Notes under the pieces: generated by a model
What the model saw: only the letters and a program-made list of their open reading frames with translations
Databases searched by the model: none
Told to the model about the DNA's origin: nothing
Shown here: positions 38,142 to 64,000 of the stretch, piece by piece
Layout of the letters: the number at the start of each line of letters is the position of its first letter
How positions within the stretch are numbered: position 1 is the stretch's first letter
NCBI GenBank assembly: GCA_000004985.1
Contig: GG738873.1
Length of the DNA: 64,000 nucleotides
Strand: one strand, 5' to 3'
From: Naegleria gruberi
Lineage: Eukaryota
Made by a program: the position numbers and the translations under genes

Positions 38142-40976
38142 ATGGCAAGAAACAATTTTTTTATTGCAATACTGGCTGTTTTTATTTTAGGATTAATTAC
38201 AGGTAGGTAGTAAAATCAACAAGAAGATGTAACACGGACTAGTTAATCTTTGTACCAATATTGTTAATGCTCAGGATGAAAATTCAGCAACAACAGAACA
38301 AGTGCAAAACCTTAAAGCTCAAAAACTTCTTCAAAATGATTTTTTAGAAGTGTTGAGCGTATTGCAAAAGCAGCAATCTGACCTCTCAGACGCAAACACC
38401 AAGAAGAAGCTGTTGGATACAAAGGAAGCTATTGAAATTTCTGGTCCATACCTGGCTGCTCTCAACATTACCTCGGATCAATTTACAACCATGCTAGCCA
38501 ATAAGCAAACTCAATTGCAAAGTGTAATGAGCTTGGAATTGGAGTTGAAGAATTTGATATCATTGACCCAAAACTCTGCTAATATTGTTGGTGATAACAT
38601 CAAAAATTTTGTAGCTGTAAGTATTAATTGTTTGTCTTTTATATTTAACATTAGCAGTTGTTCACAAAAAAAGCCTACACTGTGGATCAGTATCAAAATA
38701 CAACAAAAGAGGTACATAGATATGATCTTAATATTACCCAAGTTGATGCAATTGTTCCAAACTATCTAACTGCTTACCCAGTGAGAAGAATTAGAAATCG
38801 TATTTCAGTCGGTTTTCAACACGTGTTAGTACTAAACCAAAATGGGAAGTTGTACTCTACAGGTATTCCTTCTTATGGAAATCTGGGAAGAACCAACACT
38901 GATTCAAGAATGTTATATAACTTGCCTGTTCAAGGATTGGATGGTCTTGATATCCTTCAATTTGATGCCAATTATTACTCAAACCTTGTTTTAACCAATG
39001 ATGGAGTTTATTCATTTGGGTTGAATGACAAATCACAGATGGGAACTGGAGATAGAAATGACAGATATGTCGCTGGAAAGGTTTACGGATTTGGTGGACA
39101 AAATATTGTTCAAATAGCCATGGGACGCCAAGCATCCTATGCCATTGATTCCAACGGCAAGTTATGGGCCTGGGGTGACAATACCATGTACGGTCAATTG
39201 GGAGACAGAACCTTTTCTGAAAAGAATCGTCCTTTCCCAGTTTACAGCTATGGCGCTATTAACAGCACGGCTGTGGTTAGGGTTTGTGGGGGTGGTTACT
39301 TTGCTCTTGCCTTACTTGCAAATGGAAATATGGTTTCGTTTGGTGATAATTCATATGGACAGCTAGGTGTTAATAACCCATTAATTTCAAAATCGGGAGA
39401 ACCATTGTTGGTGGTTAAACCTTCAGAACTAGCCTCAAAGACAATTGTTGACATTCAATGTGGTTATGATTATGCAATGGCCCTTACATCATCAGGTGAT
39501 GTATATACTTGGGGAAACAACAATTACGGCCAATTGGGTGATGGAAGTTCTGGAGGTAAATCCCCAATTCCACAAAAGATCACAATTTCTGGCTGTACAG
39601 TATCCCAAATCCACACAAAATACCAAAGCTCATTTGCTTTGTGTACAAGCAACGAACTGTATTCATGGGGAATGAACTCTGTTGGCCAACTTGGAAGAAC
39701 TAGTAACCAAATACCAACAACTACCCCAACCAGAGTTGATCCTTCGTCGTTCTTGTCCAGCACTGATGACTATTTGGGCTTCCCCAAAATTATTGAGATA
39801 TCCTCCAATTTTAACAACATGTTCCTTACCACATCTGATTTGAGTATTTATGGAACCGGATCATGTATTGATGGTTCTAAACAGCAATTTGCCTTCTTCT
39901 ACACTACAAGATCCAGTGATTATGGGGCTTGCACTAGTTCCAATATTTTCTCCTTGAATTCAATGTCAAAGATGCCAACTTTCTCTTCTATTAGTTATCC
40001 AGTATCCCTTAGAAAGGCCCAATATTTTGAGATTGGAACAAGAGCCTACCTCCTTCAAACAGATACAGTAGTTCCAACCAGACCTAATAATGGCTTTAAT
40101 ATGTATTATAAGCAATTTGCTGATCCAGAAAACTCTTGGTCTATTATCGAACGAAATGAAGCCACCAACGCAGGTTTTCCTGTATCAATTTACAACAGCC
40201 ACTTCCTTAAAGCTGATGAATATGTCTACTTCTTTGGTGGTTTCATCAATGACGAAGTTTCAAATAAGATTTACAGGGCTCCAATTTATGATGTTGAATC
40301 TGGATGGGAACTCTGTAATTTTACTCTACCATATTCTGTTGCAAGTGGTATGACAACAGTTATTAATGGATACATTTATATTTTTGGTGGTATAACCAAG
40401 ATCTATTCCTACAATGGCGGTGAACTTCCAACTCTTTCTCCAACAGTTACAAACCAAATAATTAGAGCCCCAATTAATAATTTGACAAATTGGATGGTTG
40501 TTTCAGGAAAGGTATTGCCATCCGCTATACACAGTGCTTCCATTACAATTATTGACAAGTATGTCTATTTATTTGGAGGTTCCCCATCTTATTACTCTTC
40601 CAGCCAAGAAGTTTACAGAGCTTTGATTACTGATCCTTCATCTTGGGAAATGACTTTTGGTTTACTTCCATTCTTTGTAACAAATGGTGCTTTTATCTCA
40701 ACTGGTAATGAATTGTTAATGGTTGGAGGCACAGCTTCTGGCAGTTTAGTGAATGGAGGATTTATGGCGATTTCAAAGAAGTCACAATTTGACCCAGTCG
40801 GCTCATGGATGGCTAGTGATGTATTCTTACCTTCAAATGCTGCCCAATCTCTCATTACAGTGATTAGAAACGACACAGTATTGCTCTACGGAACTGAATT
40901 GCACCGTAGTACTTCTTACACTCCCCACTCACCAAAAATTGGAAGAGTTTTGAAGCTTGCACTCGATCTGTACTAA
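38142..40976 (+). CDS. Paralog A: secreted protein with coiled-coil + RCC1-like beta-propeller + Kelch-like beta-propeller; 3 exons, 918 aa
   Basis: Exon 1 is 38142..38202 and encodes MARNNFFIAILAVFILGLITG. Intron 1 is 38203..38242 (40 nt, GTAGGT..CTAG, phase 1). Exon 2 is 38243..38616. Intron 2 is 38617..38654 (38 nt, GTAAGT..TTAG). Exon 3 is 38655..40976. The frames of ORFs 38302..38769 and 38658..40976 join exactly. The predicted signal peptide cleaves near ..IVNA|QDEN. About seven RCC1-like blades carry G.N..GQLG motifs, for example YGNLGRT, GLNDKSQMG, GDNTMYGQLGD, GDNSYGQLG, GNNNYGQLGDG and GMNSVGQLG. The Kelch-like repeats are YVYFFGG, YIYIFGG and YVYLFGG. Confidence 0.8.
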
Positions 40977-41451
40977 AAGTTGTATTTGTAAAATAAAAAA
41001 TAAATTCTGTTGGATTTTTAGTGAGATCTGTGAGTTTCTCGAGCTTCAATTAGAACTCAAACTCTTGGTCTTCTTTTTATTGTTTGAAACCATGCACCTA
41101 AATTGAAATTGTGGCTCTTCCCAAACATTTACAGACCTGACTGATAACTTGTCAGTAAGAGGGGAAGCAAGAGCAGAATCAATAGAAGCAGCATCAGATT
41201 TTCAAAGACGATGGTTCAATACTGATCCTGGGTTATGTTCTATCTGGTCACAAGACAGATAAATTTCTATTGACAAGAAACTCATATTGATCCTTACAGA
41301 GGAGATAATAAATATTGTTAGATTCTGTAAAAGTGTTTGGATTTTATTTGAACAATTTACTCTGTTAGTCTTTCATAGAAAATAGCTCAAAAGTGAAATA
41401 AGCCCTTTTCACTGCAGCTTTTCACTGTTATACATTCTTTGTTCTTGCGCA

Positions 41452-44363
41452 TTAATTTTGGGAAATTACAATAGTTGATATATGAGAGTGTAATCCTTCC
41501 ACTGTTGTGATAATGGATGAAGTTGAATTTGCAGCTGCTGTAATTACTGATACAATGTAACCAACAAGCGGTAACTTTAAATCAATAACTATCCATTTTG
41601 AAGGATCATTTTTAAAACAAGCTAATACATTAGTTGAATTTCCTTCATAATCCTTTCCTCCCCAGATGAAATAATTATCGTTATCACTTGAAATTTTAGC
41701 TTCCACTCTGCTGTATGGAAGAACTTCATATAAATTCTTCCATTTCCAGTCTGCGAGTGATGCTACATGTATATCACCCACAGATTGAACTCTGTTCACT
41801 CTTCCTCCAAAGAAGTACATAGTTTTATCAATTATCTCAATAAATACATTGTAAACCGATCTTGGTAAAACTTGGTTCACAACTTCCCACAACAGCACAT
41901 TGCTAATTTTTGCTCTCATAATCTTTGCTGTTGGTACTCCTTTTGCAATCATTCCACCAAATATATAGACATATTCCTCAATCATTTTAAGTACACCATT
42001 AGCAACTGGATATGGTAATGTTTCATTATAGATTGTAACTTGGTTAAAAGATTGCTTTGAAATAATTCTATTTGAAAAGGTGCCATTCACAATACCCCCA
42101 AAATAAAAAGTCAATCCATCAAATGCAAGTTGGTGAGTGCTAAAGAATGACTTGGCAAAAAACTTTGGGTCAATTGAAAAATTGAAAGTGGGGCTAGAAA
42201 AATAAAAGGAACTAGCTAAAATGACAGAGCTAGAGTTGGAGCTTGACAACGACTTAGTGTAAATTGGTATTTTTGTGAAACTAACTAAATCAAAACCAGT
42301 ATTAGGAATTGGATGATCCATAACTATCACTCTCTTCTCTTCATCTTCATATATTGGAAGAGTTCTTTCTTCTACTGGAAAATAATTAAAAGATCCCATC
42401 ATCATTACACCTGCCATGTAATTTTGCTCATTAATGAACCCACTTGGAAAAGGTGTCACTTTAAAATAACCACCAACCATAATGCCAATTTGCCCATTAT
42501 AGGAATAAACTACTAGAGAAGAATCAGTAGATATTTGAACATCCAATAAATCTTCATATGCTGTTTCGTGAATTTGTACAAATCTTGGTTGCCTAATATC
42601 TCCACAACAAGGAACTTCGTACGATACTGACTTGATGCAAGCTGCTGGTTTTTCACAAGTGCTAATTGTATAACCAACAAATACAGGGTGAGCAGAAACA
42701 GAACAAGTGCCTGAAGACAACAATTGGCTTATTTCTGCTGCTCTCTCTGGAAGAATTCCACTCTCATATAGCCTATTTTCACCAGTAAATACGATATCCA
42801 CATTATGGGCAGGAGCCCACTCTTCACAAGCATGTTCAATGCAAATGGCTGTCAGTACTCCAGTTGCACACTGACACTTTTTCTTAGTGTTAACTCCCCA
42901 AGAAACCACTCTATTGTCAGTGGTAATGGCGTTCACAAGACCACCTCTGTGTCCAATTTTTTCAAATTTAACATCTCCAATGAACTGCCTACTAACTGGA
43001 ACGGGGGAGGGTGATGATGTTTCATCATCAGTTCCAACACAAGGATCATACCTTCCCCAAGCATAAATATTTCCATTTGACAACAAAGCTACAGTTGTTT
43101 CAGTTCCACATTGAATATCTTTTACAAAAACTCCTTCAATCCAGTCTGGAAAGCTGCTCCTAGAGATTGGTGTTGGTGATACACTGGATGCAGATCCCTA
43201 AAAGAAAACAGTAATTAATAATATGTCAAATATTGTACTCACCCAAGTATAAATGTTACCATCATAACCAATTCCAAAGGCATCTTTATCTTGTAAGCAC
43301 ACTTTTTCCATTCTAATATTTGAATTCATTCTTGTTGGCTTTTCAACATTGATATTGTCATTGTTTCCAATTATTGGGCCACCTATTCCCCATATAAAAA
43401 CGTACCCAGAATTATCTATAGCTACTGAATTAATTGCTGCATTCATGTATGCAAAAGTGTTATCATGATAAAGTATTGTAAGTGGTAAGGAAATAAATTT
43501 GTTTGTTCCTGAAGGAGGAGGTATGCCCAATCTTCCATCTGAGTTTTCTCCCTTTCAAAAATTTAGATAGATATAAAATATTGACAACCTACCCAACCAA
43601 TGATTCGTTTGTTGGTCAACACCATTGCATGAACTTTTCCACATACTAGTTGTTTGATGAATTCTCCATCTACAAGTCCTAAATTAACAGCAGCTGGTTC
43701 TATAGTTGGTGGTGAGCCCGGTCTTCCAAGAGGAACAGTCAGACTATATTCATATCCAAATGACATAAGCTGCCCACTTGAAAGATCAATGTACATTCCA
43801 TACTGATCTCCAAGGCATATGAATGTTCTTTCAGAAATAAATTTTCCACGTACTTCTCTTGAAATGCTGACTTTGTTCTTTCGTATGGATGTAGAGTTCA
43901 TTTTCTCCCTTGCAAAATAAGGGGATTTAAAGGCTTCTTGCAATGTTGTTAGGTTTTTTACAAATCGTTGTTCTATACTGTTCCACTTTTCTTGAGCAAT
44001 TTTGTTCATGCACTTTGTTTCCTTCAGCGAATGGAAAAAGGATTGCCTCCTTTGCAAAGTTTGCTTAAATGCATACATGTTTCTATTATTTGTTTCTCCC
44101 AAACTAATTATTTTCATTTCATGATCAACTTGTTTCAATTGAGCTTCTACTTCATTAATATATTCAAACATTGTTCCATTTAATTGATTAACTTTCTCTC
44201 TGTGGGCTTTTGCATTCATTAGGGCTTCAAGATAGATCTCCGAAGACATTTTGGTGTTTGTTGTTAGTGTTGCATTCATTACATTTGTTGAGTTGAGAGC
44301 CACAACTTGCAAACAACATCCCACAGTCAGGAAAAACAAAAGAACAACACTCCAACCACCCAT
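41452..44363 (-). CDS. Paralog F: secreted coiled-coil + degenerate RCC1-like + Kelch-like protein; 3 exons, 941 aa
   Basis: Exons on the minus strand are 44363..43593, 43551..43243 and 43197..41452. The introns are 43592..43552 (41 nt, GTAGGT..GAAAG) and 43242..43198 (45 nt, GTGAGT..TTTTAG), both phase 0. Frames join exactly across ORFs 43563..44363, 43198..43530 and 41452..43086. The signal peptide MGGWSVVLLFFLTVGCCLQVVALNST lies in the first exon with no intron after it. The coiled-coil region is ..NQLNGTMFEYINEVEAQLKQV... RCC1-like motifs are degenerate: GENSDGRLG, GYVFIWGIGG, DGNIYTWG, NGNIYAWG and DNRVVSWG. The Kelch-like repeats are LTFYFGG, YVYIFGG, TMYFFGG and YFIWGG. Confidence 0.75.
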
Positions 44364-45610: not shown

Positions 45611-47016
45611 ATGGAAAAACTGAAAAACGAAACTCTCCCACAATACCCACCAACGGACAATAATAATACAGACTACTCGATCACACAGACAACAGATGAC
45701 CACTCTAAAAACAATAGTACACCACTTTTAAAGAGTACCACAATCGTTTTAGAACAAGGAAATTATAGAATTCATGTTCTAGGGACTGCTCATGTATCGG
45801 AAGAATCAGCAAGAGAGGTGAGAGAATTAATTTTGGAAAAGAAGCCCTCGATAGTAATCTTGGAATTATGTCAAGGAAGAAGTTCAATTCTTGTAGATAC
45901 CAACATTTTGAAAAAGAAGCCTTTTGAAAAATCGGAAAATAGTTTTGATGGAGAAAACAGCTCACCCATATTGATGGAAAAGACAGAGGAAATTGATCCT
46001 CACAGTAATAACAATAATAGACAAAGTTTATTTTCATTACTGATGGATTACGTAAAGAGTAAGTTTAAATCTTTTTTTGTTTGACCTTATTTTCATCATT
46101 AGAAAAGAGGAAAATTACACTTTTTCAATTGGCACTTGTATATTTCATGCAAAAGGTTACAAATGATTTGAAAATACAAACCGGAATTGAAATGAAAGCA
46201 GCATATGATATTTCTGTAAAATTAAATTCGAGAATAATTCTAGGAGATAGACCAATAGATATTACGTTGAATAGATGCTGGCATTTGATGGGCTATTTCC
46301 AAAAATTCAAATTTATTTCACATATTTTATATGCCTGCACACAGACATTTTCCTCTAAAGACATTGAAATGTTGAAACATTCCGATATTTTGACGGATAT
46401 TATTGAAGAGTTTGGAAATCAATTCCCACAGCTTGCAAGAGTGTTGGTTGATGGTATGTAATGAATAATTCTAATTTTGTAATCATTTTCAAAAGAACGT
46501 GATGCCTATCTTACTCATTCAATTCTCAAGGCAATTGAATATCTGGAAAATGAAAGGCTCAGAAGAGATCAATTGGATAGTGCAGATGATGTTGAATCTA
46601 ATAATTCTAACATTTCTTCAAATAATTCAACAGCTTTGGAAGAATCAAAAATAACAACAACCAATACTACAGATATATCGACCATTACTAATGAGAGTAA
46701 GGAAAATCAAATTGAGGAGGAAGGAGCAAACAGTTGGAGTGAATCAGAAGATGAGGAAATAGATACAAGGAGTGGCGATAATTCAAGTGAAACAACTCAA
46801 CCAGATTTGGATCCAAATACAATTGTTGTAGTTGTTGGGGCAGGACATGTTAACGGTATTTCAAAATACTTTTCCAATCCAGAAAAGATTAACAGACGAG
46901 AAATTATGAAACGATACAAGAATGAGTCTAATACGGGAAATATTCTTTTCATTTTTGCTATCCTTTTCACTTTATTGGGAATTGTAATGTATTTGTTCAA
47001 AGATATGTTCATGTAG
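45611..47016 (+). CDS. TraB/PrgY-family (TRABD-like) protein with C-terminal TM helix; 3 exons, 439 aa
   Basis: Exon 1 is 45611..46058. Intron 1 is 46059..46102 (44 nt, GTAAGT..CATTAG, phase 1). Exon 2 is 46103..46453. Intron 2 is 46454..46495 (42 nt, GTATGT..CAAAAG, phase 1). Exon 3 is 46496..47016. Frames join ORFs 45611..46084, 46081..46461 and 46573..47016. TraB motifs are YRIHVLGTAHVSEESAREVRELILEKKPSIVILELCQGR, LGDRPIDITLNR and ERDAYLTHSI. The C-terminal TM is ILFIFAILFTLLGIVMYLF. Confidence 0.75.
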
Positions 47017-50207: not shown

Positions 50208-50398
50208 TTAAACTACTAAAACATTCGACTCAACTTTAAGAAGATTAATTTCTTTGTACATAAATTTTCTTTAACTTCAACTGTTTCCCAATTAATAAAT
50301 TGAAGAACACAAAGCTCACAAATCAAGCTGATTTCCAACATTTATCAAACTTTCCTTGATTCCACTTTTCGGCAATGTAGTAAAGGAGCAAAGAAAAA

Positions 50399-52652: not shown

Positions 52653-55600
52653 CTAAAAAACCATGTCACAATATACTTTAATTGGTATTGTTGTTCCATT
52701 ATTTAGAATACTATAGAAACCACCACCAATCAAACCTTGATAAACACGAGAGGTGTTAGTTGGATTTTTGTAGGAAGAGCAAGAATCAGCAACAGTTCCA
52801 TCAGCATAGTGTCTCCCATTACTGTAATCCACTATTCCTATTAATTGACATCTGTCACCAAATCTACCATGACTACATTGACATTCATCATTACCAACGC
52901 AAATACCAGCTGAAGAGCAGACACTTGGATTAGTAGCCTCGTAATATTGTGGACCAGTATACCCTGTAACATTACTGAAACCAAAATCTGGGTTAGAACA
53001 TTGATAGCACAACAATGGATACTTAGTGCACCAATCAAAATGGGTCAACTCTATATTTGTATCAGGAATAGCAGTCCATGATCCTATAATATCACTCTTC
53101 TTACCAAAGGCAAAGTAAGGTCCAGTTGAACTAGTGGATGAGTTTGTACCACCAAAAATATATAACTTATCTTCTGTTGAGGAAAATGGACCGGTATTAG
53201 TAATGAAATAAGGAAGGAGACCGAAGGTCATCTCCCAAACAGTTGGAGATTGTAATTTTGCTCTAAAGATATTAATACCACTTCCTCGTACTGTTGAGCT
53301 GCCACCAAACAAGTAGACATAATTATCAACCACTTCGATAAAAGCAGAATGCAGAGGAAGGGGAATAACATCTTGTACAATCTCCCATTTTGTTATGCTT
53401 GTTGTTGAAGCTCGCATTATACAATTGGTTACATTGTGTTTCATTGTTGGAGCAATATCTGCAGTTGCATTGAACTCATAGATGGAAATGATACCACCAA
53501 AAATGTAAACATAATCTCCTACTGCCATAAGCATACCAGATGCTATTGGGATTGGAAGTTTTTCGTTAATTAATTCCCATGATTGAAACAAATCATAGAC
53601 AGGTGCTCTGTAAATTCTATTTGAAATATCATCATCCACAACACCTCCAAACAAATAGACATATTCACCATGTTTAAGGACGTGTGTATTATAAATAGAG
53701 TGAGGAAAACCAGTGTTGGTAGTTTCATTATACTCAATCATATTCCATACCATGTCATTTGCTGTAACGTTTGTGGTGTACATATTGAACCCGTTATTTC
53801 TTCTTGTTGGAAGAGTGTTCTCTGTTTGAAGTAAATATGCAATATCACCCATTTCGAAATAAACTGGTTTTCTCTGATACCAGTATAATTGCATGTTGGT
53901 TTGGTGTCGTACTTGAGTGAAAAGTCCGTTAATAGAGAAAGCAAACTTCTTTGTTTGAACGGTTTCAAAGCAATCTTGTCCAAGGAAAAACTGGGTATTA
54001 AAACAGCCACCTGTGGCATGAATGGATCCATCAGCAAGAAAAAGGAAGGAATTATAAACATTGGAAGTAATATCTACAATTGGGTGAGCTGAGTATTTTA
54101 CAAGTTTGGGCGATAGAATTTTTAATCCATAAGAAAGTCCAGCACCTGTTTGCCCAATATCATTCAATCCCCAAGAATAAAAATACCCTGGTTTAGATGC
54201 ACAAACAGCAAAACTCACATGACCTTTTGTGTGGATCTTGGTTACGGTGCAGTTAATACCAGAAATCAAAGTTGGTATTGGTATGTTTGTTGTGTTACCA
54301 GTTCCAACTTGTCCATACATATTACCACCAAAAGCAAAAACTTTACCACTGGCTGTAAGGACAAGGTTATGAAACATACCACATTGAATATCTTTGATTG
54401 TCTCATTTTGGAATGGTTTCATCTTTACAACAACAGGCTCACCACTTGAAACGTAATCACCAGTACCCAATTGACCGTATGTGTTGTCTCCAATTGCTAC
54501 CAGATTACCTGTTGATGTTAAAGCAAGTACACTACCATTTCCAGCACAAACTCTAACAACTGTTTGATTTGCTAAAGCTCCGTATCTATAAACAGAGAAT
54601 GGTCTATTCTTTTCATCCCAAGTTCTGTCACCAATTTGACCTTGATCATTAGCTCCCCATGCCCACAATTTTCCATTTTCATCTATCGCATACGAAGCAT
54701 AATTACCCATAGCAATTTGAACTATTTTAGTGTCAAAGTTAAAACCATGAACTTTTGTTGCTTTCAACACAGATTTAGTTCCACCAGTTGCTAATTGTGA
54801 ACGATCATTTAAACCAAAAACATAGAGACCATTCGTAGTCAACACCATGCTGCTATTTCTCTGAGCTTCAATTTGAAGAATTTCTAATTCGTCAAGAACT
54901 TCAACAGGGTTATTGTAGAGGAGTCTAGAATCCTGACTTGTTCTTCCCAAATTTCCATTATTGTAGACACCAGTCGAGTATAATTTACCATTAGGCATTA
55001 GTACAAGTACGTGATTTGCACCTGCAACAATTCTGTTTCTCACTCTGACAATAGAAGAATGATATTCATAGGAAGGAAAAATACCTGGTCTAGAGTTGAA
55101 ATACATTTGGTGGTTCATTGAAAAGTTCAAAGTGTTTTGTCTGAATAATAATTCCTCTCCATAGATAGCTTCGGTGAAGTTCTTTACAAAACTAAATTGT
55201 CGATGCTCAAAATAAACTTACATTAATCATATTAAAACTATTCTCTCCCAATATTCTTTGTGAGTTATCAGCCAAGGTAATGACATTTAGTAATTCCACC
55301 TCCATGCTCAATGCTCTTTTCCAGTCCTTTTTCTTTGATGTGACCATTTGATCAAACATTGTTTGATTAACTCCCAAGTCATCCAATATCATTGAAGCTC
55401 CATCAAGTGCTTCTTGCATATTCACTAGCTTTTGCATTATCTTTGAGGAGTAAAAATCTTCCTTTTGCTTTTCGAGTCCAACCAGAACTCTATTGTAACT
55501 ATTTTGTTTTTCTTTCCATCCTTTTACAAGTTCAACAGCATGTTGTTGTTGATCATTTGAGGCATCAAATGTATGTACACTCAATGTGAAGCAAATTATT

Positions 55601-55701
55601 ACTATGAAAAATTTATAGTAAGCGGAAATATACAACCTACAAAAAGCTACACACACACATTGCAATTTAGACCGCAAACCAGCGTTGAGGGTCTTCATCA
55701 T
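52653..55701 (-). CDS. Paralog B: secreted coiled-coil + RCC1-like + Kelch-like protein with an extra C-terminal EGF-like module and a truncated fibrinogen-like start; 3 exons, 989 aa
   Basis: Exons on the minus strand are 55701..55641 (MMKTLNAGLRSKLQCVCVAF), 55601..55222 and 55181..52653. Intron 1 is 55640..55602 (39 nt, GTAGGT..CATAG, phase 1). Intron 2 is 55221..55182 (40 nt, GTAAGT..TGTAAAG, phase 0); an alternative acceptor 27 nt downstream is also in frame. RCC1-like motifs are YNNGNLGRT, GLNDRSQLATG, GANDQGQIGD, GDNTYGQLGTG, GGNMYGQVGTG and GLNDIGQTG. Kelch-like repeats are YVYLFGG, YVYIFGG, YVYLFGG and LYIFGG. The C-terminal segment reads CSSAGICVGNDECQCSHGRFGDRCQ, then ..RVYQGLIGGGFYSILNNGTTIPIKVYCDMVF and stop. 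Confidence 0.75.
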
Positions 55702-56077: not shown

Positions 56078-58846
56078 TTATTTATTTTCAAATGGTTGAG
56101 TTAATAATGGTATGGTACACAATGTGTGAGTCTTGTTGCTCATTAACCTGGTGAAGATTCTCTTGATATCAGTGCCGTAGAGATAAAGATTATTACCAGA
56201 GAAGGTTGGAGTGAAAGAAGAAACAGAAGGGATAACATCTCCCGAAACAGTCCATGAACCAACTGGGTCACTTGTTGGAGTGTAAACAACTCTGTAATTG
56301 AAATCATTCAGAGATCTTGAATGTCCTTTGCTTGGATAACCACCAAATATGAAAATGTAATCTCCTGTTACCACCATTGGCCCATCAGAGTAGGTAAATG
56401 GCAATACAGAGAAGGTATTTTCCCACAGATAGGGGAAAATATATCTAGCTCTCAAAATATCAGAGTAGGCTTCTTGAGATGGTGATCTACCCCCAAAAAT
56501 ATAGATATAATCACCGATCATGGCTATGTTACCACCATACACAGGTTGTGGGAGTTTTTTAGAGACTATTTCAAAGTTGTAAGGTGCATTGATAGGGGCA
56601 CGAATTATCATGTCAGTAACATTATTAATTGAAATGTCAAAGTTCAAGATGCCACCATAAATGTAGATGTAATCGTCTACAACCAATGACATACCAGAAG
56701 CAACTGCATATGGTAAGGTATTTTTCATCAACTCCCACCCATTCTCTATATCACTGACAGGAGCACGATAAATCTTATTGCTGAGGGTTCCATTCACCAC
56801 ACCACCATAAAAATAAATATATTCTTGAGCTCTGGCTATATGCGTGTTATAAATGGTACCAGGGAAGGTTCTTTTTGTCTTGTTTTGGTAATTCACAAGA
56901 TCCCAAGTCATAGGGTCACTCAAGTTTCTATAATACAACTGGAAGCCATTATCCACAAGTGGATAATACTTATCACCAACAAACTGATAGGCCTTATCAT
57001 CAGTTTCAAAATATGGGTAATGTCTTCTTTCAAGAGTAAAGCCAGTGGTGTTGTCAAAGGTAAAAACTTTTCTAAAATTGGATGTTACAGGTTCAAAAAC
57101 GTCAAACAATTGTCTTTCGGTTTGGGAGGAATATCCAGCACCTACAAACGCTCCATCGGTTGTCAAGCCAACAGCCGACCTGTACATCATTGTTATTTCA
57201 GTAATTTTGTGGTTGTATAATTCATCATTGGAGAGAGGAATAACTTCTGTTGCCACATTCATAAGAGCAGAAAGACCACCTGTGTGACCTAATTGCCCAT
57301 TAGAATTATCACCCCAAGAGAACCACTTTCCATCGTTACAAAGTACAAAGGAATTTCTAAACTTGGAATAGAGGGCAACAATAGATCTGCCAGCACCAAT
57401 ACCAGCCATTTCAATTGGTGTAGGGACAGTGAGGTATGGTGAATTGATACCTGTTCCACACTGACCTTTGTCATTTTTTCCCCAAGCAAAAACTTTTCCT
57501 GATTCTGTCAATACAGTTGTAAAATCATCACCACACTTCAAATCAACAACTATCTCTCCTGCAAAGCTTTCTGGTAAATTTACAGCAACAGCTTCCATTT
57601 TATATTCAGCGGAGGAGGCGCTTCCAATACCTAGTTGACCGTATGTGTTGTCGCCAAATGAATACAGACTATTATTTGAGGTTAAGACAGCAGTGTGTGA
57701 CAAACCACCACAAACCTTAACAATGTACTGATTGGCTAGAGCACCATCCATGTATACATCAACCGGTCTCACCTTTGTCACAGTTGTTTTATCACCAAGT
57801 TGGCCTCTATGATTTCTTCCCCAGGCATATAACTTGCCGTTTTCCTTAATGGCATAGAAAGTAAAAGCACCAGCAGCAATTTGCTCAACATCTTGAGGAC
57901 CTTGCAAGTCCCAAGAGAATAATTTGAATGGTACTTTTTTGTGAACGGCAACGGTTCCATCACCAACTTCGCCATAGTCATTTCTTCCCCAAGTGTAAAC
58001 AGCATCACCAGCCAAGAGAATGTTACTATAGTACGAAGAATCGAATTGAAGAATTGTAAGATTGACATTTGTAGAATAGTTTGGCAACTCAACTGGTGTA
58101 CTAAGTGTTGGAACATATCCTGTGCCCATAGTAGTTCCTAATCTACCCAAACATCCATCACATTCAACACCCCAGGAATAAAGTTTTCCATTGCCATGAA
58201 GATAAAGTCCATGGTCTCTTCCAGCTGATAGCCTATTTCTTTCACGCACAACCTTCTTAAAGGTTGCATAGTTTGGCAGATACCCATATGTAAGATTAAA
58301 ATGCAACGGAACAGGAATTGTACTAATGTTAGTATTGGTCCACTTAGAAGGATCATTCAAATAGTTCAAGGAATCTATTACCAGATCTTTCAAGGAACTA
58401 TATGTTGTATTAAAACCTTGATTGGTGAGAGCAATGAGACTGTCAAGTTCTTTTTCAACAGAAACAACATTCTCATATTGGGTAACCTTATTTTTAAGAA
58501 TTGCTTCGTATTGGTCTTGAGGGATACCAAAATCAGATATAAATTCTTTCGAGTACTTTACAGCTTCACTAATAACAGTGATTTTTTCTTTAATATTTGC
58601 TTTGACCATGTCTGCTTTTTGTTGTAAATAATCTTGATTAACAGCATAATAACTATCTCTTCTTTCTCTAAGACTAGCAATATTATAGTAAGCTTCATCT
58701 AACGGGAGTTGCTCTGATAATACTTGATTGATTACTGTTATATTAAGCATTGTAAATAATCATTTAATATTAATAAATAGAAACATCAACCTACCCGAAG
58801 CAACAAGCAATAGTAACACAACCACAATTGTGGCATTCAGCTTCAT
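56078..58846 (-). CDS. Paralog C: secreted coiled-coil + RCC1-like + Kelch-like protein; 2 exons, 902 aa
   Basis: Exon 1 is 58846..58795 and encodes MKLNATIVVVLLLLVASG. The intron is 58794..58735 (60 nt, GTAGGT..AACAG, phase 1). Exon 2 is 58734..56078 and is in frame with ORF 56078..58750. RCC1-like motifs are GVECDGCLGRLG, GRNDYGEVGDG, GRNHRGQLGD, GDNTYGQLGIG, GKNDKGQCGTG and GDNSNGQLG. Kelch-like repeats are YIYFYGG, YIYIYGG, YIYIFGG and YIFIFGG. Confidence 0.8.
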
Positions 58847-59018
58847 TTTGTGATGTAGCGGGAGATGTGATGGGTGTTGTTTTTTTAAAAGTAGTTGCAG
58901 TTTGCTGCTGTAAGCACTCGCCCAAATCAGCTTAAATACAGCTGTGTACAGTACAGTCGTAATGAAATTACCACTACGAATTATTTTATCGCTTAATACA
59001 GCAGAAAAAAACATCACA
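58847..59018. promoter_or_regulatory. About 172-bp divergent intergenic region shared by paralogs C (minus) and D (plus); putative bidirectional promoter with a TACAG motif cluster
   Basis: Start codons lie at 58846 (minus) and about 59019 (plus). The sequence aaatacagctgtgtacagtacagtcg at about 58935-58960 is followed by ttaatacagcag. Confidence 0.45.
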
Positions 59019-61799
59019 ATGAAAATCAAGCCATCCCCAAACACGCACATCAACAAACGGGTGGTTTTTTGCGTCCTCCTCGCTTTGCTAGGACTTGGTA
59101 AGTAGTGTGGAGGAATAATATGTTGACACGTTTAAAGTATTTGTAGTGGTCAAGGCTCAATCAGAACAATCTTTCAGTGAATATGTACTTTCCTTAATGT
59201 TCATGATTCAAAAAAGACAAAGTTTGATGGGAATTGAAACAGATTATTTAAGTGAAGCTGACAAAATTATCTACAAGGAGAAAATAATTTATAATACAAA
59301 ATATGCAATGGAAAGGTCTCTAGCCTCTATTAACAAGCTTGGTGTTAAAGAACAAACATATACCATACTTCTCTCAGCCAAACAAAACGAAGCAGCAGCC
59401 GCTTGGGACTCTCTTGTTGAAGTTAACAGTTATATCAATGTTACTAAGCATGCTGTTTCAGTTGCCTACTCAACCATTGATTCAATCAATGAGGTATGTT
59501 TTTTTACAATTTTTGTTGCTGAACCAGTTAGAAATTATCGAATGTACTTCTAAGCTACCACCATTGGCAAAAAACTGACCTCGATTTATTGCCAGCAAAC
59601 ATGACTCTCAATACTACAGTTGGTTATCTCCCAAATCATGTAATGTATTTCCCAGTTATGAGAATTAGAAATAGAATTTCTGCTGGATTAAATCATGGTT
59701 TGTTCCTTGGCCCTGGTGGTAATTTGTATTCTTGGGGTGTTGATATGGGTGGTTCTTTGGGAAGATCTGTTAACACACCAATGCCAAGTTTGGATTTGCC
59801 TGTAGAATTGAAGAACGTTACCATTCTTCAGTTCACTAACTCTTACTATGGAAATCTGTTGCTAGCTGATGATGCCGTCTATTCATGGGGAAAGAATGAC
59901 TATGGAGTTGATGCTGATGGTACAACTGTGAATCATTACCAACCAAGGAAGGTCTTTTCATGGGATTTACAAGGTCCTAAAGGAATCGCTCAGATTGCTT
60001 CTGGCCCATATAACTTTTATGCTATTGACGAAAATGGTAAACTCTATTCATGGGGAAAGAATGATTTTGGCCAACTTGGCGATAGAACTCCAATTGACAA
60101 ATGGAGACCTGTGGACGTTTTTATGAAGGGTGCTTTGCTTAATCAAACAGTTACCAGAGTTTGTGGTGGTTTGACTCATACTCTTGTCCTTGCCAACAAT
60201 GGAATGCTTTACTCTTTTGGTGATAACTCTAAAGGACAACTTGGTATCGGAGTTAGTTCCTCAGTTATTGCAAAGAAATGGGAACCTGTCCTCATCAATT
60301 TCCCATTCAATGACACAATTGCAGATATTCAATGTGGTGATAACCACAACCTGGTGCTCTTGACTGGAGGTGCCATGTATGCTTGGGGTCTTAACGACTA
60401 TGGGCAACTTGGAGATAATACCACAACAACAAGAACAAAACCAACCAAAGTCAACACACTCTCAGCTATTGGTACAAGAAAAGTTGTCAAGATTGAATCA
60501 AGACTCAACGAGAATTTTGCCTTCTTGGAAAATGGAGCCATGGTTTCATGGGGTCAAAATGATTATTCTCAATTAGGTCATTCCAAAATAGCAATTATAG
60601 GCAATATTGCCACCACCTTTATAAATGTTCCGGTAGAGTTTAGCTTACCCAATGGTTATATGCCTTCTGAAATAGCAATCATGAATGGATCAACTGTAAT
60701 TCTTGGTGCAAATGGCACCCTTTATGGTGCTGGATTTTCTTCAGAAAGTACCAGAAAACTGTTGAACATCACCACTTCCCAAACTAAGTTTACCCAGTGT
60801 TACACCTTCCCACCTATATACCCAGTTATGGAAAGAAGACATTATCCATATATCCAACTCAACGAAAAGAGCTATGCATTTATTGGATCCAAGTACTTTT
60901 CTTACCCTGATAATGGGTTTGATGGATACGTGAGGAATAACACCTCTCCAGAATTGTGGTCAATGATTGATTATCAAAATACAACATCACAGATGTTCCC
61001 TGGTTCCATTTACAATACTCATATTTTGAGAACTAACCAACATGTTTACTTCTATGGTGGTTTTGTTAATGGATCAATTTCAAACCTTATTTACAGAGCT
61101 CCAGTGGATAATATTGAAAATGGATGGGAAATTGTTAAGCCAACGCTCCCATTCCCAGTTTCAAACGGTATGTCCATTTTATTGGATGACTTTTTCTACA
61201 TATTTGGTGGCTTGACTTGGTTTAATAGCACAGACAAAGGATTCGTATCAATTGGTGTTTCATCAAGTATTTTGAGATGTCATGTTTCCAGTCCAACCCA
61301 ATGGGAAATAATGAGTGGTGGTGGGTTGCCAAGAGGTGTCTATAGTGGCAATATTGCAAGAATTGGAGATTTCGTCTATATTTTGGGTGGGCGAGTTAAC
61401 ACGGGTGATGCGTTTGCTGACATCTTCAGAGCTCCTTATTTGAATATTAGTCAATGGGAAAATACTTACTCAGTGCTTCCATTCCCTTTATCTGATAGCC
61501 CAATGATAATTACCAATAGTAGTATCTACCTCATGGGAGGATATTTGTCTGAGTACTCTCCAAATATTATTGGTACATACTATCCTCATATTATTACAGC
61601 TCCTCTAAGTGATCCAGTTGGTTCATGGTCTGTTACTGGAGACAAGCTCCCAACTAATCCAGCTTTTCAATCTGTTACTTCGCCAGTAGTTGTTGGATCG
61701 AATGTATATTTATACGGTAATGATGCCTCAAAGATAACAGAGACAAACATCAGAAGTACCACTGTCAGCTCATTCATTAAGATTCCTCTATTGGTTTAA
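59019..61799 (+). CDS. Paralog D: secreted coiled-coil + RCC1-like + Kelch-like protein; 3 exons, 897 aa
   Basis: Exon 1 is about 59019..59097 and encodes MKIKPSPNTHINKRVVFCVLLALLGL. Intron 1 is 59098..59146 (49 nt, GTAAGT..TTTGTAG, phase 1). Exon 2 is 59147..59493. Intron 2 is 59494..59531 (38 nt, GTATGT..CAGTTAG, phase 0). Exon 3 is 59532..61799. Frames join ORFs 59146..59553 and 59589..61799. RCC1-like motifs are GVDMGGSLGRS, GKNDYGVDADG, GKNDFGQLGD, GDNSKGQLGIG, GLNDYGQLGD and GQNDYSQLG. Kelch-like repeats are HVYFYGG, FFYIFGG, FVYILGG and IYLMGG. Confidence 0.75.
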
Positions 61800-61990
61800 T
61801 AAACAACCTTGTATAATAGTTATTTATTTTCTAAACATATCTCTTTAAAAAATTAGTTAACCTTATTCAACATTCAAACAAAAAAAATTGAGGTAAAAAA
61901 CCGTTTTAACATTTTGAACACTGTACCGTACAAAATTACAGCCATTGGCTGTAAAACACTGTATAAGGCTTTAAAAAAACATAAAAAAAA

Positions 61991-64000
61991 ATGATCTGGA
62001 GCAATACTCATGTAGAGGTTAGTCCAAAGAGCATTGGGCTTGCCGTGGTATTGTTATTTGTATCAATATCTTTTATTTGTAAGTTTCTCCAAGTAATAAT
62101 TGAAGCATATAGTCCATATAGGTGTTACTTCAAGTGCTCAAACAACCCAATACAATAGCACATTAACTTCAGAATTGTTTTACAAACTGTCATTTTACAG
62201 AGAAAGACGAGATAGTTTTTACCAGATTTACACAGACTACGTTCGTCAAAATCAAGAAATAGAAGAATCCAGAATTAAATTGAAAATTAATATTACAAAA
62301 GAGGCTGTAGAAGCTTCTTTTTATGAAATTACAAAATTAAGAATTCCAGTTGAACAATACTATCAAATGCTGAATAATAAGAATATACAATACGCAAACC
62401 TAGAAGAGGTTCAGAAGGAGCTTGATGACTTGATCACATTGACTGATCTTGGTTTCCTACACACCCAATCCACCCTAGATGATGTAGAAAAAGTAAGTCC
62501 TTCAGTTATTGGAAATGCTTATCGGTAATAGTCTGCTTCTAACATTTTGTACAATGAAGAAAAATGGCAATTGGCCAAAACAAGGAAGATAGTTTCCTCA
62601 ATGAACTTTACTACGACTGTTGGATTTCTTCCTAGTCATGCTAGATCTCACAAAATACCAAGAATTAGAAATAGAGTGTCTGCAGGAAAAAATCATGGTA
62701 TTCTTCTTCATTATAATGGACTACTCTATTCTTGGGGCGCTGACAATGGTGGTGCTTTAGGTAGACCAAATAGTGCAGGTGTCTCATCTTTTACTCTCTC
62801 TACCCCTGTTGAATTACCAAAGAATATTTCCATTCTTCAATTTGTTAGCTCAAACTATGCCAATTTGGTTCTTGCTGGAGATGCAGTTTATTCTTGGGGC
62901 AGAAATGAATACGGAGTTGTTGGTGATGGTACTTTTGGTGGAAATAAGCCACCATACAAGTTATTCTCTTGGGATTTGCAAGGTCCAAAAAGAATTGAGC
63001 AAATTGGAGCTGGAGGCTACACTTTTTATGTAATTGATGAAAATGGAAAAGCATATGCTTGGGGCAGAAACAATAGAGGCCAACTTGGAGACAAAACAAC
63101 CATTGACAAGCCAAGACCAGTTGACGTCTACATGAAAGGCATTTTACTCAATCAAACAGTCATTAGGGTTTGTGGTGGAGAAAGTCACACTTTGTTGTTG
63201 ACTAGTAATAATGAATTAGCGGCTATGGGTGACAACACTTATGGGCAATTAGGTGTGGGTACTTCTGGTGGATATAAAATGGAACCAACAAGAGTCAACA
63301 TCAAATTTAATGGTACTATTATGGACATACAGTGTGGTGAAAATTATAACCTTGTCTTAACTTCCAAAGGGTTGGTATACGGTTGGGGAAGGAACGATGT
63401 TGGTCAACTTGGAAGTGGAGACAAGCTAGACAAGTTGGAACCTACTCTTATTTCCTACCTTAAAAACAGCACAGTAGTCAAGATTTATGCCAGATTTTCG
63501 ACCTCATTTGCTCTTACCAATGAAAGTTTCTTATATGCTTGGGGTAATAACAATCAATACCAATTGGGTGCTAGTTCAGCCACCCTTTTTACAGTACCTC
63601 AAAATATAACACTCCCAGAATATGTGACTGTTGTTGACTTGGCTGTCATGCAAGGAACAACTGTATTTTTAGGAAATAATGGTACTTATTACGGTAGTGG
63701 TGGATCAACTAATGGAGAACTGCTCCGTATTTCATCACAACAACCAGCCTTCGACTGGATTTATAATGGATTGAGTTTTTATGGGTTTGCAATGGAAAGA
63801 AGAAGATATCCATATTTTGAAGTGGATGATATTGCCTACCAGTTTGTAGGGGACAATTTTGCAATCTTTCCAGATAATGGTTTTTACCTTTATAAGAGAA
63901 ATATTGCAGATCCAACAATGGGTTCGATTGTAGAATACAGAAACAATACTGGCAAATTCTTCCAAGGAACAATTTACAATTCTCATATGCTTAGACTAGG
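61991..64000 (+). CDS. Paralog E (3' end truncated by the window edge): secreted coiled-coil + RCC1-like + Kelch-like protein; at least 3 exons, more than 645 aa in the window
   Basis: Exon 1 is 61991..62078 and encodes MIWSNTHVEVSPKSIGLAVVLLFVSISFI. Intron 1 is 62079..62112 (34 nt, GTAAGT..CATATAG, phase 1). Exon 2 is 62113..62492, in the ORF 62100..62528 frame, and ends ..DDVEK|GTAAGT. Intron 2 is 62493..62531 (39 nt, ..GTAATAG). Exon 3 runs from 62532 and stays open to the window end. This frame is absent from the ORF track, presumably because it has no stop. RCC1-like motifs are GADNGGALGRP, GRNEYGVVGDG, GRNNRGQLGD, GDNTYGQLGVG, GRNDVGQLGSG and GNNNQYQLG. Confidence 0.7.

What the first reader, a model, noticed from the sequence alone, without database searches (positions are those of the whole stretch)
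38142..64000. Cluster of six paralogous genes encoding secreted coiled-coil + RCC1-like + Kelch-like double-propeller proteins
Six genes share one architecture: an N-terminal signal peptide, a coiled-coil segment of about 100-130 aa, a 7-blade RCC1-like propeller with repeated G.N..GQLG motifs, then a Kelch-like propeller with YxYxFGG motifs. Many NxS/T sequons are present. The genes are A 38142-40976 (+), F 41452-44363 (-), B 52653-55701 (-), C 56078-58846 (-), D 59019-61799 (+) and E 61991->64000 (+). RCC1-like domains are classically cytosolic or nuclear (Ran-GEF, HERC, RPGR, alsin). RCC1 and Kelch propellers fused in tandem behind a cleavable signal peptide, and expanded as a local family, is not an architecture I recognise from described families. 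A and C-E are arranged as divergent/tandem pairs, which suggests local duplication. This is the most likely novel system in the window, with a candidate extracellular or surface role, possibly related to the neighbouring giant adhesion gene.
Basis: partly seen in the sequence, partly recalled or inferred. Interest (0 to 1): 0.85.

Follow-up and report, generated by a model that had tools for sequence, protein, structure and literature searches.

The report
Secreted RCC1–Kelch double-propeller family, Naegleria
The window (Naegleria gruberi) really does hold six old paralogous genes for secretory-pathway proteins made of a helical stalk, an RCC1-like propeller and a Kelch-type propeller; the family is found across the genus, has never been studied, and most likely consists of extracellular binding proteins rather than GTPase regulators.

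Summary
All six genes are at the stated coordinates, and spliced models give one shared architecture:
- an N-terminal hydrophobic signal;
- a helical region of about 130 aa;
- a 7-blade RCC1-like propeller (Pfam E 1e-62 to 1e-74; 8e-29 for F; Foldseek to UVR8 gives target-normalised TM 0.88);

The window is N. gruberi NEG-M: the public model XP_002676169.1 is 100% identical to gene A's last exon but lacks the signal and stalk exons.

Orthologues exist in N. lovaniensis and N. fowleri. The C/D head-to-head pair is conserved in all three species, so the duplications are ancient (19-46% identity between paralogues).

An extracellular location is supported independently. B-type and other family members add EGF and fibrinogen-like modules after the Kelch propeller.

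The RCC1 part is of the ordinary eukaryotic type. The Kelch part belongs to a subtype that is abundant in surface proteins of CPR bacteria (Candidate Phyla Radiation, Patescibacteria).

A coiled coil is not shown: the region is helical, but a crude heptad test was negative for A-E. Sequon enrichment is weak.

I found no literature on the family.

Verdict: a real, uncharacterised, lineage-specific architecture, i.e. a new variant of known kinds. The most likely role is secreted or surface ligand binding or adhesion, but the function is inferred, not shown.

The parts
38142..40976 (+). Gene A, 903 aa. Exons 38142-38202 (signal peptide MARNNFFIAILAVFILGLITA), 38288-38616 (helical region) and 38655-40976. 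RLD (RCC1-like domain) 38775-39875; Kelch-type propeller about 39975-40973.
   Evidence: Splice model. Pfam. The last exon is 100% identical to N. gruberi XP_002676169.1, which lacks exons 1-2.
41452..44363 (-). Gene F, 941 aa, the divergent member. Exons 44363-43593, 43551-43243 and 43197-41452, with two 41-45 nt introns inside the RLD. Kelch-type propeller about 41512-42375.
   Evidence: Pfam RLD E 8e-29 and PF24681 E 1e-11. Its best relatives are P0181 and N. fowleri P0155.
52653..55701 (-). Gene B, 1002 aa. Exons 55701-55222 and 55181-52653. RLD 53991-55061, then a Kelch-type propeller, then an EGF-like module and the first ~45 aa of a fibrinogen-related domain, ending 'VYCDMVF*'.
   Evidence: B is 92% identical to N. 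gruberi NAEGRDRAFT_68523, a paralogue outside the window that continues about 190 aa further. No missing exons were found in the window.
56078..58846 (-). Gene C, 902 aa. Exons 58846-58795 (signal peptide) and 58734-56078. RLD 57116-58261; Kelch-type propeller 56081-57082.
   Evidence: AF2 models. Fold searches. The orthologue is N. lovaniensis C9374_002175, 61% identical.
59019..61799 (+). Gene D, 897 aa. Exons 59019-59097 (signal peptide), 59147-59493 and 59532-61799. RLD 59649-60749; Kelch-type propeller 60783-61796.
   Evidence: The orthologues are N. lovaniensis C9374_002176 and N. fowleri FDP41_000283, both ~54-55% identical.
61991..64000 (+). Gene E, partial (642 aa seen; it runs off the window). 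Exons 61991-62078 (signal peptide), 62122-62492 and 62532 to beyond 64000. RLD 62646-63716; the start of the Kelch-type propeller is at 63744.
   Evidence: The orthologue is the N-terminal two thirds of N. lovaniensis C9374_014136, 54% identical.
58847..59018 (.). The 172-bp divergent spacer between C and D. It carries TACAGC motifs at 58912 (-), 58937 (+) and 58997 (+).
   Evidence: The head-to-head pair and the motif are conserved in N. lovaniensis L001 and N. fowleri L003.
38060..38071 (+). CTGTACAGCC motif 79 nt upstream of gene A, inside the 160-bp spacer shared with the giant EGF/LamG gene. Equivalent motifs lie at 55759 (-, B), 61937 (+, E) and about 44469 (-, F, TACAGT).

Best explanation
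These are six members of a Naegleria-wide family of secretory-pathway glycoproteins.

**Architecture.** Each protein enters the ER through an N-terminal signal. In the window genes this is probably a cleaved signal peptide; in some family members it looks like a type II anchor. The mature protein presents:
- a three-helix stalk of about 130 aa;
- a rigid 7-bladed RCC1-like propeller of the ordinary eukaryotic type;
- a 6-bladed Kelch-type propeller of a subtype otherwise typical of bacterial and phage surface proteins.

B-type members add EGF and fibrinogen-like lectin modules.

**Proposed function.** The proteins most likely act outside the cell or on its surface as non-enzymatic binding proteins, using the propeller faces to hold ligands. 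Candidates are prey or substrate glycans, or other proteins. They would not act as Ran or GTPase exchange factors.

**Evolution and regulation.** The family grew by ancient duplications that stayed clustered. Its members appear to be co-regulated through a shared upstream TACAGC element.

**Shown versus inferred.**
- Shown: the genes, the domains, the folds, conservation across three species, and extracellular-type accessory modules in relatives.
- Inferred: signal-peptide cleavage, oligomerisation through the stalk, ligand binding, and the biological role.
For: - Gene models and domains.
- A single N-terminal hydrophobic segment in all six proteins and in the N. lovaniensis and N. fowleri orthologues. 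There is no KDEL and no C-terminal TM.
- Family members with extracellular-only modules after the Kelch propeller:
  - P0271 has EGF plus a fibrinogen-related subdomain (PF00147 at 23.9 bits against a cut-off of 22; MFAP4 E 2e-6).
  - N. fowleri FDP41_001824, FDP41_001832 and FDP41_003733 and N. lovaniensis C9374_009311 are named 'EGF-like domain-containing' and show EGF repeats.
- P0155 has a type II anchor-like N-terminus.
- Secreted or surface RCC1-like and Kelch-type propellers are widespread in bacteria and phages. Examples are T9SS-sorted proteins, BLIP-II, tail fibres and giant CPR proteins.
- The C/D divergent pair is conserved in three species.
- The upstream motif is shared by all six genes and by the orthologues, and is absent from 21 control neighbours.
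Against: - There is no direct evidence of secretion, glycosylation, oligomerisation or any ligand.
- SignalP and TMHMM could not be run, and some orthologues have h-regions of about 22 aa that could be uncleaved anchors.
- There is no RNA evidence for the 5' exons in N. gruberi, and the public model of gene A omits them.
- The heptad test does not support a canonical coiled coil in A-E.
- Sequon enrichment is weak.
Confidence: 0.55

Rival explanations
1. The proteins stay inside the endomembrane system (ER, Golgi, lysosome or phagosome lumen). There they would act as enzymes or lectins on sugars, with the Kelch-type propeller as the catalytic part (a NanM-like mutarotase or an oxidase-like enzyme). 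They would not be exported.
For: - They have the same signal sequence.
- There are weak Pfam NANM hits (E 4e-4 to 1e-3).
- R588, H649 and the SIYNTH motif are invariant at the start of the propeller.
Against: - The NANM scores (18-20 bits) are far below the 45-bit cut-off.
- The best fold matches are non-enzymatic Kelch adaptors (KLHDC2, KLHDC3, LZTR1).
- There is no KDEL/HDEL retention signal.
- EGF and fibrinogen-like add-ons in relatives point to the cell surface or matrix.
- Catalytic residues were not examined.
Confidence: 0.17
2. They are structural components of an extracellular structure, such as the cyst wall or another matrix. The two propellers would be lectin-like cross-linkers, expressed only at encystment or another life-stage switch.
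For: - A secretory signal plus repetitive rigid domains.
- A family-specific upstream motif suggests stage-specific co-regulation.
- The neighbouring giant EGF/LamG gene shares a promoter spacer with gene A.
Against: No expression or proteomic data were available. Nothing in the sequence is specific for wall proteins. This is a special case of the best explanation rather than a true alternative.
Confidence: 0.15
3. The N-terminal exons are modelling artefacts. In that case the real proteins are cytosolic RCC1-like/Kelch scaffolds, such as GEF-like proteins or ubiquitin-ligase substrate adaptors, as for classical eukaryotic RLD and Kelch proteins.
For: - The public N. gruberi model of gene A starts at the last exon.
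- With the family profile, eukaryotic cytosolic RLDs are the best solved matches: UVR8 236 bits, RPGR 218, HERC2 217 and RCC1 206.
- The best Kelch fold matches are CRL adaptors.
Against: - The open frame continues upstream of every last exon, across short canonical introns at conserved positions and phases, into a hydrophobic first exon in all six genes.
- The independent annotations of N. lovaniensis and N. fowleri include the same N-termini, and these align.
- There is no BTB, BACK, F-box or HECT domain.
- Relatives carry EGF and fibrinogen-like modules.
Confidence: 0.05

Closest known systems
RCC1-like domain (RLD) proteins of eukaryotes (UVR8, HERC2 RLDs, RPGR, RCC1)
   Same: They share a seven-bladed propeller and repeat motifs. 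A family profile scores UVR8 at 236 bits, RPGR at 218, HERC2 at 217 and RCC1 at 206. Foldseek gives target-normalised TM 0.88 to UVR8.
   Different: Those proteins are cytosolic or nuclear and have no signal peptide. The Naegleria proteins have a secretory signal and no GWRHT tryptophan motifs of UVR8. They have no HECT or BTB partner domains and are fused to a Kelch-type propeller.
Bacterial and phage secreted or surface RCC1-like propellers (BLIP-II; 'alpha-tubulin suppressor-like RCC1 family' surface proteins; phage tail fibres)
   Same: An RCC1-like propeller is used outside the cell as a binding module. The bacterial proteins carry T9SS, cadherin-like, FN3 and Ig domains. BLIP-II is matched at E 5e-5 by sequence and 6e-11 by profile. 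Phage tail-fibre proteins are matched by fold.
   Different: The Naegleria RLD is no closer to the bacterial ones (best single domains 150-172 bits) than to eukaryotic RLDs. The host is a eukaryote, and the partner domains differ.
Kelch-type propellers of CPR-bacterial giant surface proteins and small bacterial lipoproteins (Saccharimonadales, Paceibacterota, Parcubacteria)
   Same: They share a blade signature, '...IYRAP..P..W.....LP......DYxYxFGG'. The family profile scores these at 110-140 bits per domain and over 200 bits per small protein. Solved eukaryotic Kelch domains score 41 bits or less. Two giant proteins, P0129 and P0183, also contain an RLD followed by this propeller.
   Different: Those are prokaryotic multi-propeller giants or single-propeller lipoproteins. 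No stalk and no single RLD + single Kelch unit of about 900 aa is seen there. A direct evolutionary link (HGT, horizontal gene transfer) was not tested by phylogeny.
Olfactomedin-family proteins (myocilin, noelins) and other 'signal peptide + helical stalk + propeller head' secreted proteins
   Same: The design logic is the same: a secretory signal, then an N-terminal helical or coiled-coil region, then a C-terminal beta-propeller used for extracellular binding. This comparison rests on my own knowledge of that family.
   Different: They are not homologous. There is no OLF domain hit in Pfam. Olfactomedin has a five-bladed OLF propeller, whereas this family has a 7-blade RLD plus a 6-blade Kelch. 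Oligomerisation is unproven here.
Attractin/MEGF8-type extracellular Kelch propellers and fibrinogen-related lectins (ficolins, MFAP4, tenascin FReD)
   Same: This is an extracellular Kelch-type propeller combined with EGF modules. There are weak PF24981 hits at E 1e-6 to 1e-8. B-type members carry a fibrinogen-related subdomain, with MFAP4 at E 2e-6.
   Different: The PF24981 scores are below the cut-off. There are no CUB, PSI or CLECT domains. The fibrinogen-like match covers only the first ~60 residues and is truncated in window gene B.

Membership tests
RCC1-like domain (RLD) superfamily | Pfam RCC1 or RLD models matched above their curated cut-offs | tested here: met
   PF25390 scores 210-252 bits (cut-off 150) in A-E and 101 bits in F, which is below the cut-off. 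PF00415 and PF13540 are far above their cut-offs in A-E, and PF13540 scores 55 bits in F.
RCC1-like domain (RLD) superfamily | Seven-bladed beta-propeller fold | tested here: met
   In the AF2 model of C, residues 146-557 have pLDDT mostly 85-97. Foldseek to UVR8 gives E 1.7e-31 and target-normalised TM 0.88, and HERC2, RPGR and RCC1 give E 1e-22 to 1e-23.
RCC1 / Ran-GEF functional class | Nucleo-cytoplasmic location (no secretory signal) | tested here: not met
   All six proteins and their orthologues begin with a hydrophobic signal-like segment.
RCC1 / Ran-GEF functional class | Beta-wedge and Ran-contact residues | not tested
   No residue-level comparison was made.
UVR8 UV-B photoreceptors | GWRHT motifs carrying the tryptophan triad | tested here: not met
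   The pattern GW[RK]H[ST] is absent from all six proteins. A pangenome paper labels Naegleria RCC1 genes as 'UVR8' (PMC9928731). That label does not fit these genes.
Kelch-repeat beta-propeller superfamily | Kelch Pfam models matched | tested here: met
   Kelch_6 scores 26.2, 42.5 and 33.3 bits in A, B and C (cut-off 25.3). D (18.2) is below the cut-off; F has no Kelch_6 hit, only PF24681 at 44.7 bits (cut-off 50). PF24681 gives E 1e-7 to 1e-13.
Kelch-repeat beta-propeller superfamily | Six-bladed propeller of four-stranded blades | tested here: met
BTB-Kelch, F-box-Kelch or KLHDC ubiquitin-ligase adaptors | BTB/BACK, F-box or Elongin-binding box next to the propeller | tested here: not met
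   No such Pfam hit appears in any of the six proteins.
NanM/YjhT sialic-acid mutarotase | PF24996 above its cut-off, plus the catalytic residues | tested here: not met
Galactose oxidase / AA5 copper radical oxidases | Seven-bladed Kelch domain with Cu ligands and a Tyr-Cys cofactor | tested here: not met
Olfactomedin family | OLF five-bladed propeller domain | tested here: not met
   Pfam gives no OLF hit. The resemblance is in the architecture only.
Fibrinogen-related domain proteins (B-type members only) | Complete FReD (about 220 aa) matched | tested here: inconclusive
   The paralogue P0271 scores 23.9 bits on PF00147 (cut-off 22), but only over profile positions 12-46. MFAP4 gives E 2e-6 over about 60 aa. 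Window gene B stops right after 'VYCDM'.
Classical secreted proteins | Cleavable signal peptide predicted by a trained predictor, or shown by experiment | not testable with these tools
   Only heuristics were possible. The h-regions are 12-19 aa and are followed by small residues, for example VKA|Q, SSA|Q, VVA|L and VAS|V. SignalP and DeepTMHMM were not available.
Coiled-coil oligomers | Heptad periodicity, or a predicted or observed intermolecular coiled coil | tested here: inconclusive
   AF2 predicts helices 11-44, 47-68 and 72-125 in mature C. A crude a/d heptad test gives z from -0.4 to 1.4 for A-E and 3.2 for F. No multimer prediction was possible.

The most novel reading that the evidence does not exclude
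The family is a chimera that arose in the Naegleria lineage. A eukaryotic RCC1-like propeller would have been fused to a Kelch-type propeller captured from bacteria or their phages, the 'IYRAP...DYxYxFGG' subtype of CPR surface proteins. The fusion was then placed behind a signal peptide and a stalk. The result would be a new class of eukaryotic secreted or surface pattern-recognition or adhesion receptors for bacterial prey, and in N. fowleri possibly for host cells. Some members are further armed with fibrinogen-like lectin domains, and all are driven by a dedicated TACAGC cis-element.
Probability: 0.15. Interest if true: 0.7.

Novelty: new variant of a known kind. Interest (0 to 1): 0.45.

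Why it matters
- **An unusual deployment of RCC1.** In eukaryotes, RCC1-like propellers are textbook intracellular regulators. A conserved, expanded family that sends an RCC1-like propeller through the secretory pathway, welded to a bacterial-type Kelch propeller, would widen what this fold is known to do in eukaryotes.
- **Candidate surface molecules.** The family gives candidates for how a bacterivorous amoeba, and its pathogenic relative N. fowleri (which has at least six members), recognises prey, substrate or host.
- **Annotation.** The public N. gruberi model of at least gene A is truncated, which hides the signal peptide from database users.
- **Limits.** The function is entirely inferred, and the family is restricted to one lineage, so the finding is of moderate interest and not a breakthrough.

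Tried and rejected
1. **UVR8-type photoreceptor reading** (suggested by the pangenome paper's label). Rejected: there are no GWRHT motifs.
2. **Bacterial origin of the RCC1 part.** Not supported: with one and the same profile, eukaryotic RLDs score as high as or higher than the best bacterial domains.
3. **Missing 3' exons of gene B.** tblastn with the 190-aa tail of the paralogue finds nothing in the window, so B is truncated.
4. **Canonical coiled coil.** The heptad test is not significant for A-E.
5. **The search for homologous proteins with the Kelch part.** Run once with the single sequence and once with the alignment. It returned nothing both times, although close relatives exist. This is a tool limitation, so family sizing relied on the exhaustive representative search.
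6. **afdb50 fold search.** The library was unavailable.
7. **Metagenome locus scan.** It gave only two hits at 27% identity, one of them on a virus- or phage-like contig.
8. **Exact look-ups of the N. gruberi proteins and of the 955-aa neighbour.** No contigs were on record, so the part of the cluster beyond the window could not be read.
9. **Literature searches.** Searches by gene identifier and by domain names found nothing on the family.
10. **tRNA and Rfam scans of the window.** Both were empty.

Full report
**Source and gene structure**

The window has about 35% G+C, with long ORFs interrupted by very short GT-AG introns. I rebuilt the six genes by finding in-frame GT...AG introns of 38-85 nt that remove the stops. 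They give proteins of 903 (A), 941 (F), 1002 (B), 902 (C) and 897 (D) aa. E is a 642-aa fragment cut by the window end.

In A, D and E, a phase-1 intron follows the signal-peptide exon and a phase-0 intron ends the helical region. C has only the first of these and B only the second. F has two introns inside the RCC1 region.

The organism is Naegleria gruberi NEG-M. The public protein XP_002676169.1 (NAEGRDRAFT_49691, 777 aa) is 100% identical over 773 aa to the last exon of gene A. That public model lacks the two 5' exons that encode the signal and the helical region.

**Domains**

Pfam assigns an RCC1-like domain (RLD) to all six proteins. PF25390 gives E 6e-64 to 2e-74 for A-E and 8e-29 for F, with four to six RCC1 repeats each.

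The C-terminal third gives modest Kelch hits. Kelch_6 is above its cut-off in A, B and C. PF24681 gives E 1e-7 to 1e-13. The attractin/LZTR1 and NanM models score below their cut-offs.

G.N..GQLG-type motifs occur four or five times per protein in A-E (twice in F, none strict), and YxYxFGG-type motifs occur one to four times in the five full-length proteins (once in F, none in the truncated E). The corresponding shuffle means are about 0.1 and 0.02.

An AlphaFold2 model of mature C, built on a 15-sequence family alignment, has pLDDT 79 and pTM 0.72. It shows three helices (11-44, 47-68, 72-125), a propeller at 146-557 and a second beta domain at 574-875.
- Foldseek against the PDB puts UVR8 first (E 1.7e-31, target-normalised TM 0.88), then the HERC2 RLDs, RPGR and RCC1.

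So both propeller assignments hold, and neither is PQQ or NHL.

**Signal and stalk**

Each protein has one hydrophobic stretch at the N-terminus, 12-19 aa long in the window genes. It is followed by small residues compatible with cleavage, and there is no further TM-like segment, no KDEL and no hydrophobic C-terminus. The independently annotated orthologues of N. lovaniensis and N. fowleri have the same feature, and their N-terminal regions align with mine. I could not run SignalP. Some orthologues have h-regions of about 22 aa, and one N. fowleri member (P0155) has a 40-aa N-terminus before a 25-aa hydrophobic stretch. Some members may therefore be type II anchored.

The 'coiled coil' is a helical region poor in Pro and Gly. 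A crude heptad test is not significant for A-E (z from -0.4 to 1.4) and is significant only for F (z 3.2). I therefore call it a helical stalk or bundle, and oligomerisation remains open.

NxS/T sequons total 76, against about 61 expected from composition. This is a weak signal.

**Family and age**

The best full-length relatives are Naegleria proteins:
- N. lovaniensis C9374_002175, 61% identical to C.
- N. lovaniensis C9374_002176 and N. fowleri FDP41_000283, both ~54-55% identical to D.
- N. lovaniensis C9374_014136, 54% identical to E.
- An N. fowleri protein 40% identical to A.

An exhaustive profile search with the Kelch part, followed by local HMM scans, found about 30 representative proteins with RLD + Kelch in this order. 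All the named ones are Naegleria, including N. fowleri FDP41_011001, FDP41_001824, FDP41_001832 and FDP41_003733 and N. lovaniensis C9374_009311. The rest come from unnamed metagenome contigs.

Within the window the paralogues are only 19-46% identical. The C/D head-to-head pair, 172 bp apart here, is conserved at 78-90 bp in N. lovaniensis and N. fowleri, next to the same Raptor and AMP-binding genes. The E orthologue lies elsewhere in N. lovaniensis. The duplications are therefore old.

One recent event is visible. NAEGRDRAFT_68523, on the same scaffold but outside the window, is 92% identical to B.

**Evidence for an extracellular location beyond the signal**

That paralogue continues after the Kelch propeller with an EGF-like module and about 190 aa that start like a fibrinogen-related domain. 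PF00147 scores 23.9 bits (cut-off 22). MFAP4 gives E 2e-6, followed by tenascin, angiopoietin and ficolin.

Window gene B has the EGF and stops right after the 'VYCDM' motif, and the missing part is not in the window. Several N. fowleri and N. lovaniensis members carry runs of EGF repeats after the Kelch propeller. EGF and fibrinogen-related modules are, to my knowledge, extracellular modules. Their fusion to the same RLD-Kelch core argues that the core works outside the cell.

**Affinities of the two propellers**

The RLD is of the ordinary eukaryotic type. With one five-sequence RLD profile, solved eukaryotic RLDs score 204-236 bits (UVR8, RPGR, HERC2, RCC1). The best single RLDs of the bacterial surface proteins that crowd the hit list score 150-172 bits.

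The Kelch part behaves differently. With one five-sequence profile, solved eukaryotic Kelch domains reach at most 41 bits. The representative library holds 5133 hits at E below 1e-3 and 148 below 1e-30, and these include:
- small lipoprotein-like proteins with the same blade signature (P0153 and P0156, about 207 bits);
- giant proteins of 3900-7100 aa with up to 29 matched stretches.

The named ones are from Candidatus Saccharimonadales, Paceibacterota and Parcubacteria. One metagenome hit lies on a virus- or phage-like contig. One giant protein combines these propellers with endosialidase tail-spike and S74 chaperone domains. Two giants also have an RLD followed by this propeller.

This makes a bacterial or viral origin of the Kelch part a lead. 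No tree was built, so it is not a result.

**Precedents**

Extracellular RCC1-like propellers are not new in biology. The bacterial hits carry T9SS sorting, cadherin-like, FN3 and Ig domains. BLIP-II, a secreted Streptomyces inhibitor, is matched by sequence. Phage tail-fibre proteins are matched by fold.

What is unusual is a conserved eukaryotic family of this kind and the RLD-Kelch fusion behind a stalk. I found no paper on it. One pangenome paper lumps Naegleria RCC1 genes under 'UVR8' (PMC9928731), but the UVR8 tryptophan motifs are absent here.

**Mechanism**

The most likely reading is a secreted or surface-anchored glycoprotein. Its stalk holds two rigid propellers that bind ligands, and B-type members add a lectin-like fibrinogen domain. 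In design it resembles olfactomedin-type proteins (signal, helical region, propeller) and bacterial or phage adhesins.

The steps shown are the genes, the domains, the folds, the conservation and the extracellular-type accessory modules. The steps inferred are cleavage, export, oligomerisation, ligand binding and the biological role (prey or substrate recognition, adhesion, or matrix or cyst-wall building).

The rivals are a luminal enzymatic or lectin role for the Kelch part, a structural wall role, and the unlikely cytosolic reading that would apply if the 5' exons were wrong.

**Link to the giant gene**

The neighbouring ORF (19158 to about 37981, minus strand, interrupted by a 1622-N gap) encodes teneurin-type EGF repeats and Laminin_G_3 domains. 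It starts 160 bp from gene A in divergent orientation. In the other two species the C/D pair has no such neighbour within 10 kb. The only hint of a functional link is the shared spacer and the motif below.

**A shared upstream motif**

TACAGC (TACAGT for F), often within a palindrome, lies 22-106 nt upstream of the start codon of all six genes. Six of the ten intergenic TACAGC copies in the window are these.

The motif is the best-conserved block of the C/D spacer in the three species, and it precedes the D and E orthologues at -23 to -32. None of 21 neighbouring control genes in the orthologous loci has it within 120 nt on the sense strand, and neither do the TraB and coiled-coil genes of the window. 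This suggests family-specific co-regulation, but it was not tested genome-wide.

**Verdict**

This is a real, uncharacterised, genus-wide family with an unusual architecture built from known folds: a new variant of known kinds, of moderate interest.

Noticed in passing
window 38063(+), 44469(-), 55759(-), 58912(-), 58937(+), 58997(+), 61937(+); L001 about 7313(-); L003 about 9978(+); L004 about 9978(+): A motif [AT]TACAG[CT], often palindromic (CTGTACAG, TACAGCTGTA, TTACAGCCATTGGCTGTAA), lies 22-106 nt upstream of the ATG of all six family genes and of the D and E orthologues in N. lovaniensis and N. fowleri. It is absent within 120 nt on the sense strand from 21 control neighbours, and within 200 nt from the TraB and coiled-coil genes of the window. 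It is a possible family-specific cis-element.
   Followed up: partly
window 38142-38654: The public N. gruberi model of gene A (XP_002676169.1, 777 aa) starts at the last exon. It omits the signal-peptide and helical exons that the open frame, the canonical introns and the orthologues support. This is probably an annotation error that hides the secretory nature of the protein.
   Followed up: yes
window 52653-52870: Gene B ends 'VYCDMVF*', inside the first subdomain of a fibrinogen-related domain. A 92%-identical paralogue on the same scaffold but outside the window (NAEGRDRAFT_68523) continues for about 190 aa. B is therefore a recently duplicated copy that has lost its C-terminal domain, and the cluster extends beyond the window.
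   Followed up: yes
window 17536-19157 and 19158-37981 (- strand): A giant single-exon ORF (over 6300 aa read) is built of repeated units of teneurin-type EGF pairs and Laminin_G_3 domains, with 398 Cys and 185 sequons. It is interrupted by a 1622-N assembly gap. Its start lies 160 bp from gene A in divergent orientation.
   Followed up: partly
window 27545-28039 (- strand): Inside the giant gene there is a 165-aa stretch made almost only of N-x-T/S units (NFT, NIT, NLT, NYT; 31 sequons). It is probably a heavily N-glycosylated spacer.
   Followed up: no
proteins P0121-P0131 (not in the window); L005 2007-3215: The Kelch subtype of this family ('IYRAP..W..LP..DYxYxFGG') is repeated up to 29 times in proteins of 3900-7100 aa from CPR bacteria (Saccharimonadales and others). 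One of them also has endosialidase tail-spike and S74 chaperone domains. The subtype also occurs on a virus- or phage-like metagenome contig.
   Followed up: partly
window 45611-47016, 47340-50207, 50696-51903: The genes between F and B are unrelated to the family: a TraB/PrgY-like protein with short introns, a 955-aa Ser-rich coiled-coil protein in a single exon, and a gene of two or more exons with no Pfam match.
   Followed up: partly
L003 7011-12948; L001 4364-10231: The head-to-head C/D gene pair, only 78-172 bp apart, is kept in three Naegleria species. The two paralogues may be co-expressed and could work together, for example as a hetero-oligomer. This is an untested idea.
   Followed up: partly
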